Below are positions 16,823 to 19,082 of a DNA stretch of 33,287 nt, one piece after another. Source of the stretch: Eledone cirrhosa (Eukaryota); NCBI GenBank assembly GCA_964016885.1, contig CAXHJY010001366.1:1-33287 (forward strand), read 5' to 3'. The notes under the pieces are model-generated. The model made no database searches, was not told the origin of the DNA, and was given only the letters and a program-made list of their open reading frames with translations. Within the stretch, counting starts at the first letter, position 1; each line of letters opens with the position of its first letter. Both the position numbers and the translations under genes were made by a program.

Positions 16823-16967
16823 TATATTTATATATTTACAGAGACCCAGACAGTATTTTGAACTGTTTCATCAATATATATGTTTCAGTGATATGTGAAT
16901 CATCTGTTCTAAACAGTATTTTTCATTGTTATTTAAATAAACTCTGATGACACCCGTGGTCTACTTA

Positions 16968-18581
16968 ATAATAATTGTTTCTACTTCTGGCACAAGGCCA
17001 GCAATTATTCCAGTGTATTACTGGTACTTTATTTTGTAATAACTGTTTCTACTTCTGGCACAAGGCCAGCAATTATCCCAGTGTATTACCTGTTTCTACT
17101 TCTGGCACAAGCCAGCAATTATCCTAGTGTATTACTGGTACTTTATTTTGTAATAACTGTTTCTACTTCTGGCACAAGGCCAGCAATTATCCCAGTGTAT
17201 CACTGGTACTTTATTTTCTAATAACTGTTTCTACTTTTGGCACAAGGCCAGCAATTATCGCAGTGTATTACTGGTACTTTATTTTGTAATAACTGTTTCT
17301 ACTTTTGGCACAAGGCTAGCAATTATCCCAGTGTATTACCGGTACTTTATTTTCTAATAACTGTTTCTACTTCTGGCACAAGGCCAGCAATTATCCCAGA
17401 GTATTACTGGTACTTTATTTTCTAATAACTGTTTCTACTTTTGGCACAAGGCCAGCAATTATCCCAGTGTATTACTGGTACTTTATTTTGTAATAACTGT
17501 TTCTACTTTTGGCACAAGGCTAGCAATTATCCCAGTGTATTACCGGTACTTTATTTTCTAATAACTGTTTCTACTTCTGGCACAAGGCCAGCAATTATCC
17601 CAGAGTATTACTGGTACTTTATTTTCTAATAACTGTTTCTACTTTTGGCACAAGGCTAGCAATTATCCCAGTGTATTACTGGTACTTTATTTTGTAATAA
17701 CCGTTTCTACTTCTGGCACAAGGCCAGCAATTATCTCAGTGTATTACTGGTACTTTATTTTGTAATAACTATTTCTACTTCTGGCACAAGGCCAGCAATT
17801 ATCCCAGTGTATTACAGGTACTTTATTTTGTAATAACTGTTTAGACTTCTGGCACAAGGCCGGCAATTATCCCAGTGTATTACTGGTACTTTATTTTCTA
17901 ATAAATGTTTCTACTTTTGGCACAAGGCTAGCAATTATCCCAGTGTATTACTGGTACTTTATTTTGTAATAACTGTTTCTACTTCTGGCACAAGGCCAGC
18001 AATTATCCCAGTGTATTACAGGTACTTTATTTTGTAATAACTGTTTCTACTTTTGGCACAAGGCCAGCAATTAGCCCAGTGTATTACTGGTACTTTATTT
18101 TGTAATAACTGTTTCTACTTCTGGCACAAGGCCAGCAATTATCCCAGTGTATTACTGGTACTTTATTTTGTAATAACTGTTTCTACTTTTGGCACAAGGC
18201 CAGCAATTATCCCAGTGTATTACTGGTACTTTATTTTGTAATAACTGTTTCTACTTCTGGCACAAGGCCAGCAATTATCCCAGTGTATTACTGGTACTTT
18301 ATTTTCTAATAACTGTTTCTACTTCTGGCACCAGGCCAGCAATTATCCCAGTGTATTACTGGTACTTTATTTTGTAATAACTGTTTCTACTTTTGGCACA
18401 AGGCCAGTAATTATCCCAGTGTATTACTGGTACTTTATTTTGTAATAATTGTTTCTACTTATGGCACAAGGCCAGCAATTATCCCAGTGTATTACTGGTA
18501 CTTTATTTTGTAATAACTGTTTCTACTTTTGTCACAAGGCCAGCAATTATTCCAGTGTATTACTGGTACTTTATTTTATCG
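16968..18581 (-). repeat. Tandem array of 24 x 68-bp SINE 3' tails
   Basis: Unit TAATAACTGTTTCTACTTCTGGCACAAGGCCAGCAATTATCCCAGTGTATTACTGGTACTTTATTTTG matches the SINE 3' end. One unit is shortened (~17090), and there is a 204-bp trimer higher-order repeat (17237 vs 17441). Confidence 0.96.
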
Positions 18582-18706
18582 GGATGGATTAGCTAGAGAG
18601 AGAGAGAGAGAGTGTGTGTGAGGTAATAATTGGTTCTACTTTTGGCACAAGGCCAGCAATTATCCCAGTGTATTACTGGTACTTTATTTTATCGGGATGG
18701 ATTAGC

Positions 18707-18751
<45 letters not shown>

Positions 18752-18885
18752 TGTGAGGTAATAATTGTTTCTACTTTTGGCACAAGACCAGCAATTATCC
18801 CAGTGTATTACTGGTACTTTATTTTATCGGGATGGATTATCTAGAGAGAGAGAGAGAGTGTGTGAGTGTGTGTGAGTGTGTGAGG
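18582..18885. repeat. Three GGATGGATTA(G/T)CTA-(GA)n-(GT)n-GAGG spacers alternating with SINE tails
   Basis: Spacers at ~18582-18624, 18694-18758 and 18829-18885, each followed by a tail unit. Microsatellite lengths differ between spacers. Confidence 0.9.
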
Positions 18886-19056
18886 TAATAATTGTTTTTA
18901 CTTCTGGCACAAGGCCAGCAATTATTCCAGTGTATTACTGGTACTTTATTTTATCGACCTCGTAAGGATGAAAGGCAAAGTTAACCTCGGCGGGATTTGA
19001 ACTCAGAATGACAAGGGCCGTAACTATACGTCAAAGCATGGCGTCTGACCCTCTAC
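18886..19056 (-). mobile_element. SINE copy, 5'-truncated, terminating the 68-bp array
   Basis: Tail, core and B box are present. It ends at CCCTCTAC, which overlaps the right-hand TSD-like repeat. Confidence 0.92.
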
Positions 19057-19082
19057 TTATTAATAATGAATTATTAAACTAA

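What the first reader, a model, noticed from the sequence alone, without database searches (positions are those of the whole stretch)
16960..19067. 2.1-kb satellite of SINE 3' tails enclosed in one target-site duplication
Seen: TCTACTTAATAATAAT (16960-16975) and TCTACTTATTAATAAT (19052-19067), 15/16 identical, enclose one 5'-truncated SINE plus 26 additional 68-bp tails. Each tail keeps the CCAGT-5nt-ACTGG stem-loop. Known: SINE 3' stem-loops are the sites recognised by the partner LINE RT. Inference: the array arose within one insertion, by repeated RT re-priming or slippage or by later unequal exchange. If transcribed it would be a multivalent RT-binding RNA or a piRNA source.
Basis: partly seen in the sequence, partly recalled or inferred. 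Interest (0 to 1): 0.7.

Follow-up and report, generated by a model that had tools for sequence, protein, structure and literature searches.

The report
SINE-tail minisatellite copied between neighbouring loci
A short jumping element in this animal genome carries 26 extra copies of its own tail inside its insertion footprint, a known kind of repeat, and its unusual joints also occur at a few other insertions, which suggests that such arrays were likely seeded by copying between nearby elements and then likely grew by ordinary DNA duplication.

Summary
The array and its target-site duplication (TSD) are real. Four of 7 paralogues of the interrupted host repeat hold one 16-mer-like site and run on into the right flank. 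Details need correcting: 21 of the 26 extra tails are 68 bp, three carry a foreign (TC)n piece, and the hairpin is perfect in 17 of 27 tails. No LINE origin of the hairpin was shown. The array is not a one-off: its two junction types occur at four other arrays with unrelated flanks and with heads from at least two SINE subfamilies, plus one solo candidate donor. The three placed members lie within 0.95 Mb of one chromosome. Two more donor-recipient pairs lie 850 kb and 29 kb apart. Block duplications inside the arrays point to DNA-level growth. Best reading: local copying between neighbouring SINE copies, then tandem amplification; repair versus RT switching at insertion is undecided. Arrays inside one TSD are published (squamates, blood clam); I found no paper that traces local donors. 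The scan's index holds no look-alike of this repeat, only other transposon-derived satellites in this genome. Expression and function are untested.

The parts
16887..16959 (.). Older dispersed host repeat, left part, interrupted by the insertion
   Evidence: 7 paralogues at 72-89% identity over parts of this stretch; 4 continue into 19068-19089
16960..16975 (.). TSD copy at the SINE's 3' end; its AAT part overlaps the (ATT)n tail
16974..18515 (-). 23 short tail units (21 x 68 bp, one 47, one 67) with a junction found only here and on contig C136
   Evidence: (12 + 31 exact matches genome-wide)
18516..18890 (-). Three long units (113, 135, 127 bp): SINE tail plus foreign piece Y
18582..18623 (-). 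Foreign piece Y, first copy (others about 18695-18758 and 18830-18885); it also stands beside a solo truncated SINE at G000:C18:19756115, the candidate donor
18890..19056 (-). 5'-truncated tRNA-type SINE; B box at 18993-19004, A box lost
   Evidence: box motifs recalled
19052..19067 (.). TSD copy at the SINE's 5' junction; 5 bases overlap SINE sequence (microhomology)
19068..19089 (.). Host repeat, right part
19085..19275 (-). Separate full-length SINE just upstream, same orientation, with A box (19251-19262) and B box (19188-19199); no run of four T lies between it and position 15946, so a read-through RNA over the array is possible (inferred)

Best explanation
This is a SINE-derived minisatellite inside a real TSD, whose tail-to-tail joints were likely copied in from a nearby SINE locus by a DNA-repair (gene-conversion-like) step and whose units then likely multiplied by slippage or unequal exchange. 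Shown: the TSD and the empty site; junctions shared with four other arrays that have other flanks and other heads; clustering of the placed members; block duplications. Inferred order: (1) a SINE inserts with a 16-bp TSD; (2) a joint 'tail + Y + truncated tail' forms from a solo truncated SINE and its flank; (3) neighbouring SINE insertions pick it up through the 62-bp tail that they all share, each keeping its own head and TSD; (4) deletion of Y gives the 68-bp unit; (5) units amplify in place. No function is needed to explain it.
For: The 68-bp junction occurs at only two loci genome-wide. The Y junction occurs at the window, C18:18809826, C18:18856147 and C136:278293, with a solo Y + tail at C18:19756115. 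Flanks are unrelated. Own TSDs: 16 nt with 1 mismatch here, 18 nt perfect and 10 nt perfect at two others. Heads are 88-97% alike and fall in at least two subfamilies, so no single master RNA fits. The three placed loci lie within 0.95 Mb of a 3.0-Gb genome (about 3e-7 if uniform). A second family occurs at only two loci, 850 kb apart on C2: the junction is native (own TSD + flank + older SINE) at one and foreign at the other, which has another head and its own 19-nt TSD. A third pair lies 29 kb apart on C18 (checked only within the 1.27 Mb held). Multi-unit blocks repeat in both 68-bp arrays. Tandem-repeat cover is 46-64% in the window and in the C136 and C18 stretches scanned, against 12% around 30 loci on C1. 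The pattern marks 2 arrays in 0.9 Mb of C18 against 12 tail arrays listed for 859 Mb of C1 + C2.
Against: The window and C136 are unplaced contigs; that they lie near C18:18.8-19.8 Mb is not shown (hints only: two assembly gaps there and a second minisatellite shared between C136 and that region). The tail-Y joint has no visible microhomology to the candidate donor, which fits an RT jump better than repair. The terminal units of the two 68-bp arrays are identical, as copying from one RNA end would give. In the 20 of 30 tail doublets that could be compared, the short copy is no closer to its neighbour than to other copies (5.45 against 5.3 differences, p = 0.68), so seeds usually come from a second template, which RT could supply. 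The C136:12761 array has no TSD, and the 30-nt repeat at C18:18856147 is not a clean TSD. One more foreign-looking junction had no sister locus. No reads of this locus were available.
Confidence: 0.5

Rival explanations
1. Local capture during insertion: the LINE RT starts on a SINE RNA, switches onto a nearby SINE copy (its DNA or nascent transcript), runs into that copy's flank, re-primes on another SINE RNA tail and finishes, so a chimeric multi-tail element lands with one TSD. Later DNA duplication adds most of the units.
For: It explains locality, mixed heads, TSDs, the homology-free tail-Y joint and the identical terminal units. [quoted passage not shown] Doublets use a second template.
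Against: It needs two switches per event and reach over up to 0.95 Mb. One array lacks a TSD, and one has a 30-nt repeat that includes a neighbour's tail and head. A second minisatellite family is also shared between C136 and the C18 region.
Confidence: 0.3
2. A multi-tail read-through RNA from one master locus retrotransposed freely as a composite, like a SINE 3' transduction.
For: Shared junctions and shared unit variants; TSDs at three arrays; no run of four T in the array's sense strand; the 45-bp head repeat of the same SINE is spread over many chromosomes.
Against: Placed members are confined to under 1 Mb, in two families checked genome-wide; heads differ by subfamily.
Confidence: 0.1
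3. One reading: all tails were laid down in one insertion by repeated RT re-priming or slippage at this site.
For: One TSD encloses everything; the first and last tails share a haplotype; second-template doublets are common (2,459 junction matches).
Against: 23 junctions at the same position; exact multi-unit block repeats; junctions and variants shared with other loci.
Confidence: 0.05
4. The 16-mer match is chance, or the array is an assembly artefact.
For: The 16-mer is AT-rich and overlaps SINE sequence at both ends; the contig is unplaced and no reads spanning the array were available.
Against: Null of 4 in 930 and empty-site paralogues; units differ by about 3 of 68 bases with ordered variants, and the junction recurs on another contig.
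Confidence: 0.03

Closest known systems
SINE-derived satellites (sSat) of squamate reptiles, PMC10702118 (parts 1-4 of 5 of the text read)
   Same: Tandem units of about 70-290 nt cut from part of a tRNA-related SINE, with a longer terminal unit that reaches the SINE's end; at least four middle monomers; alternating sub-variants; many loci with different registers; a subtelomeric bias (seen here for the 45-bp head arrays).
   Different: Probably a mollusc (octopus-like repeats, recalled; not tested). Units here are the extreme 3' tail and some hold captured flank. The parts read report no TSD analysis and no tracing of donor and recipient loci.
TSD1-(SINE)n-TSD1 and TSD1-(SINE-TSD1)n arrays of the blood clam Scapharca broughtonii, PMC11481361 (passages)
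   Same: Several truncated SINE units inside one TSD, 4-15 units; both structural types occur in this genome.
   Different: More units here (26 and 37 extra) and shorter ones; junctions imported from other loci. The passages read offer unequal recombination between TSDs as the origin.
Alu target-site triplication (Lee et al. 2015; seen only as a citation in PMC11481361, paper not held)
   Same: By its title and citing sentence, it resembles the doublets here in which the site is repeated before, between and after two SINE copies.
   Different: The window's internal junctions do not repeat its own TSD, so it is not a triplication.
L1 insertions with locally templated genomic DNA and template-switch chimeras (PMC11702581; 10.1101/2025.02.02.635956; passages)
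   Same: Foreign sequence from a second template inside a TSD-bounded insertion.
   Different: Human L1, single captures; in the passages read no tandem amplification and no SINE-to-SINE spread.

Membership tests
tRNA-derived SINE (parent element) | Short, non-coding, highly repeated and dispersed | tested here: met
   About 190 bp; 163,002 exact matches to a 22-nt tail motif
tRNA-derived SINE (parent element) | A and B boxes in the head | tested here: met
   Both boxes seen in full-length copies by eye against recalled consensus motifs; Rfam gave no tRNA match over 16800-19600
tRNA-derived SINE (parent element) | Simple-repeat tail and TSDs | tested here: met
   (ATT)n ends; TSD score of 10 or more in 13 of 26 isolated copies against 12 of 930 null pairs
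tRNA-derived SINE (parent element) | 3' region shared with a partner LINE | tested here: inconclusive
   30 best of 150 scored RT matches (118,944 candidates), all one family: only the (ATT)n end is shared; other LINE families not examined
SINE-derived satellite (sSat, PMC10702118) | Tandem unit is a part of a SINE, shorter than the SINE | tested here: met
   The 68-bp unit matches positions 131-192 of the SINE
SINE-derived satellite (sSat, PMC10702118) | At least four middle monomers and an extended terminal unit | tested here: met
   26 extra tails and a 167-bp terminal SINE
SINE-derived satellite (sSat, PMC10702118) | Subtelomeric or heterochromatic location | tested here: inconclusive
   The window is an unplaced contig; sister arrays lie at 18.8-19.8 Mb of a 43.9-Mb chromosome
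TSD1-(SINE)n-TSD1 array (PMC11481361) | One TSD encloses several truncated SINE units | tested here: met
Target-site triplication | The locus's own target site is repeated between the units | tested here: not met
   Internal junctions lack the unique part of the 16-mer
MetaSINE superfamily (PMC4824008) | 66-bp Meta domain after the tRNA head | tested here: inconclusive
   The consensus is in a figure that is not held; the bivalve Meta sequences in supplement 2, part 1 of 4, do not resemble this SINE by eye

The most novel reading that the evidence does not exclude
The partner RT, while inserting a SINE, switches onto neighbouring SINE copies up to about 1 Mb away and re-primes on other SINE RNAs, so that chimeric multi-tail SINEs spread locally from locus to locus and seed families of minisatellites: a local, RT-coupled route from a SINE to satellite DNA.
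Probability: 0.3. Interest if true: 0.6.

Novelty: new variant of a known kind. Interest (0 to 1): 0.36.

Why it matters
How the same SINE-derived repeat unit comes to stand at several loci is left open in the parts of the sSat paper that I read. Here the captured flank acts as a tag, so donor and recipient loci can be read off directly. In all three cases where a donor could be traced, it was local (29 kb to 0.95 Mb). A genome-wide junction census and allele surveys could test whether repair or RT moves these units. The single array has no sign of a function, and its structure is already in print.

Tried and rejected
Orthologue or allele test with public runs: no RNA holder listed. Runs X1-X4 had next to no cover on the unique left flank, so the site could not be tested in them; they do show many tail-to-tail joints of the same SINE. 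Whether piece Y is native beside the solo copy at C18:19756115 was not tested in other genomes and stays open. Partner LINE: the top RT family shares only (ATT)n with the SINE; other families were not examined. Rfam: one chance-level match, E = 0.81. MetaSINE identity, first suspected from memory, was dropped. Segmental duplication as the cause of the sister arrays: rejected, the flanks share no long unique match. Independent recurrence of the 68-bp junction: rejected, it occurs at only two loci, which share unit variants. A further foreign-looking 77-bp junction had no sister locus; of eight arrays on C18 whose junction words were looked up in the 1.27 Mb held, one had a match elsewhere. A junction seen on C1 and C2 at three distant loci turned out to be repeated insertion into one host repeat family. 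In one search, 10 of 30 doublets were dropped because a tail segment of 50-64 nt could not be parsed; one kept pair is an outlier (24 differences). Place lists show only the first 100 matches, so per-chromosome counts assume that the lists are complete for C1 and C2. Literature: 10 searches listed no paper on this SINE's arrays or on local donor tracing; subscription papers, including Lee et al. 2015 and Ohshima and Okada 1994, were not readable, and the supplements of the sSat and bivalve papers were not read.

Full report
Setting. The window is a whole unplaced contig (G000:C1393) of a 3.0-Gb genome in 1,796 contigs. Tandem repeats cover 60% of it. The repeats look like those of an octopus; this label is recalled and agrees with unchecked earlier notes on this genome. 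The parent element is a SINE of about 190 bp with tRNA-type A and B boxes (motifs recalled), an (ATT)n end and at least 163,002 copies of a 22-nt tail motif.

Observation. The two 16-mers match at 15 of 16 bases and enclose a 5'-truncated SINE (18890-19056, minus strand) and 26 further tails. Of these, 21 are 68 bp, one is 47, one is 67, and three (113, 135, 127 bp) carry a foreign piece Y with (TC)n and (AC)n runs. The CCAGT-N5-ACTGG hairpin is perfect in 17 of 27 tails. Its stems hold 5 of 21 variant alleles on 10 of 68 positions (counted), so they are not spared from change.

The TSD is real. Its score of 14 was reached by 4 of 930 mismatched flank pairs, and 13 of 26 isolated SINEs scored 10 or more. 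The insertion splits an older repeat. Of 7 paralogues of the left flank, 4 hold one copy of the site and continue into sequence that matches the right flank beyond the 16-mer (0-3 of 500 shuffles), while 3 diverge there. Public runs did not cover the unique flank, so no orthologue or allele was seen.

The array has relatives. The 68-bp junction occurs 43 times in the genome: 12 in the window and 31 in an array of 37 extra tails at C136:12761-15463. The two arrays share variants at four positions among the 68-bp units (a fifth through the 67-bp unit) and have identical terminal units. The Y junction occurs in the window and at C18:18809826 (3 units), C18:18856147 (5) and C136:278293 (3). Y also stands beside a solo truncated SINE at C18:19756115, where it runs on into other sequence; this is the candidate donor. 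The 68-bp unit reads as a Y unit with Y deleted (inferred from the shared junction base). The flanks are unrelated. Three of the five arrays have a TSD of 10-18 nt, one has a 30-nt repeat that includes part of a neighbouring SINE, and one has none. The five heads are 88-97% alike and belong to at least two subfamilies.

The spread is local where it can be placed. The three placed members lie within 0.95 Mb (about 3e-7 under uniform placement). A second junction occurs at only two loci, 850 kb apart on C2: at one it is the element's own TSD plus flank plus an older SINE; at the other it sits in three units behind a head of another subfamily, inside a different 19-nt TSD. A third pair lies 29 kb apart on C18 and shares a tail variant; this was checked only within the 1.27 Mb held. 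Against this, one foreign-looking junction had no sister, and the positions of C1393 and C136 are unknown; two assembly gaps in the C18 stretch and another minisatellite shared with C136 are hints only.

Growth in place. Units 6-7 equal units 9-10 in the window, and 6- to 7-unit patterns repeat on C136. This needs DNA-level duplication. The C18 stretch is rich in such arrays: 22 clusters of three or more SINE pieces in 0.9 Mb, and 46% tandem cover in its first 300 kb against 12% around 30 loci on C1.

Seeds. Short tails that abut another SINE's tail give 2,459 matches genome-wide, array units included. In 20 of 30 such doublets that could be compared, the short copy is no closer to its neighbour than to other copies (5.45 against 5.3 differences, p = 0.68). 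In 11 of 30 the junction shares 14 or more bases (common tail letters included) with the sequence behind the short copy. Doublets therefore mostly come from a second template at the same target, by later insertion or by re-priming; the data do not tell which.

Mechanism. Shown: TSD, empty site, shared junctions, mixed heads, clustering, block duplications. Inferred: a joint formed once, was copied into neighbouring SINE insertions through the shared tail, and was amplified in place. I put 0.5 on a repair or gene-conversion step, 0.3 on RT switching onto a nearby copy during insertion, 0.1 on free retrotransposition of a composite RNA, and 0.05 on serial re-priming for all tails. The homology-free tail-Y joint and the identical terminal units argue for RT; the array without a TSD and the general instability of the region argue for DNA repair.

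RT binding and expression. The 30 best RT loci belong to one LINE family whose 3' end shares only (ATT)n with the SINE; a C-terminal motif suggests the CR1 clade (recalled). The truncated SINE lacks its A box, but the full-length SINE at 19085-19275 could read through, since no run of four T occurs before position 15946 (terminator rule recalled). Expression is untested.

Comparison. The array meets the working definition of the squamate sSats (PMC10702118, parts 1-4 of 5 read) and matches the TSD1-(SINE)n-TSD1 structure described in blood clam (PMC11481361, passages). A review lists other SINE-derived tandem repeats and ectopic repair as a route (PMC9659126, passages). Locally templated inserts and template-switch chimeras are known for L1 (PMC11702581 and 10.1101/2025.02.02.635956, passages). 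PMC4824008 (passages, section 9, part 1 of 4 of supplement 2) did not settle the superfamily. Ten searches (listings only unless named above) showed no paper that traces local donors for such arrays; subscription papers and unread supplements may hold one. The scan's own index has no look-alike of this repeat.

Verdict. A real feature of a known structural kind, with a new and testable twist: junctions that can be traced to nearby donor copies. Interest 0.36.

Noticed in passing
window 30851-31879: A second SINE carries 19 tandem copies of its first 45 bases inside a perfect 16-bp TSD (30851 and 31864). The same junction has 1,251 exact matches genome-wide; the listed loci on C1 and C2 all lie in the outer 55 Mb of each end, and 7 of 16 fetched loci show a clear TSD by eye. 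This head array is a far commoner sSat than the 68-bp tail array, and its fixed register is unexplained.
   Followed up: partly
L033-L062 (G000:C1): Tail doublets in which the target sequence stands before, between and after two SINE copies from different templates, like target-site triplication.
   Followed up: partly
alignment of SINE copies: Diagnostic variants in the head and in the tail appear to assort freely between copies, which suggests frequent template switching or gene conversion in the family; judged by eye.
   Followed up: no
G000:C18:18780001-19680000: Dense zone of SINE-derived tandem arrays with many registers, including a 42-unit head array at 19074212 and 21-bp tail repeats at 19517174.
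   Followed up: partly
G000:C136:218700-219800; C18 near 19.03, 19.14 and 19.31 Mb: Another minisatellite family shared at 88-90% between the unplaced contig and the C18 stretch.
   Followed up: no
window 13784-15851 and 20205-20770: Unrelated minisatellites of 27, 31 and 40 bp; the 27- and 31-bp units share a core and grade into each other.
   Followed up: no
window 1230-2290, minus strand: Decayed 3' fragment of a LINE reverse transcriptase gene, RTE-like by recalled motifs; its 3' end does not resemble the SINE tail by eye.
   Followed up: no
window 19085-19275 and 19373-19557: Two SINE copies head to head, about 100 bp apart, able to form a long hairpin if transcribed together.
   Followed up: no
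L128-L157: A LINE family with many copies whose open frame runs 945 codons and whose 3' end is (ATT)n, likely young; a candidate partner for the SINE by tail type only.
   Followed up: partly
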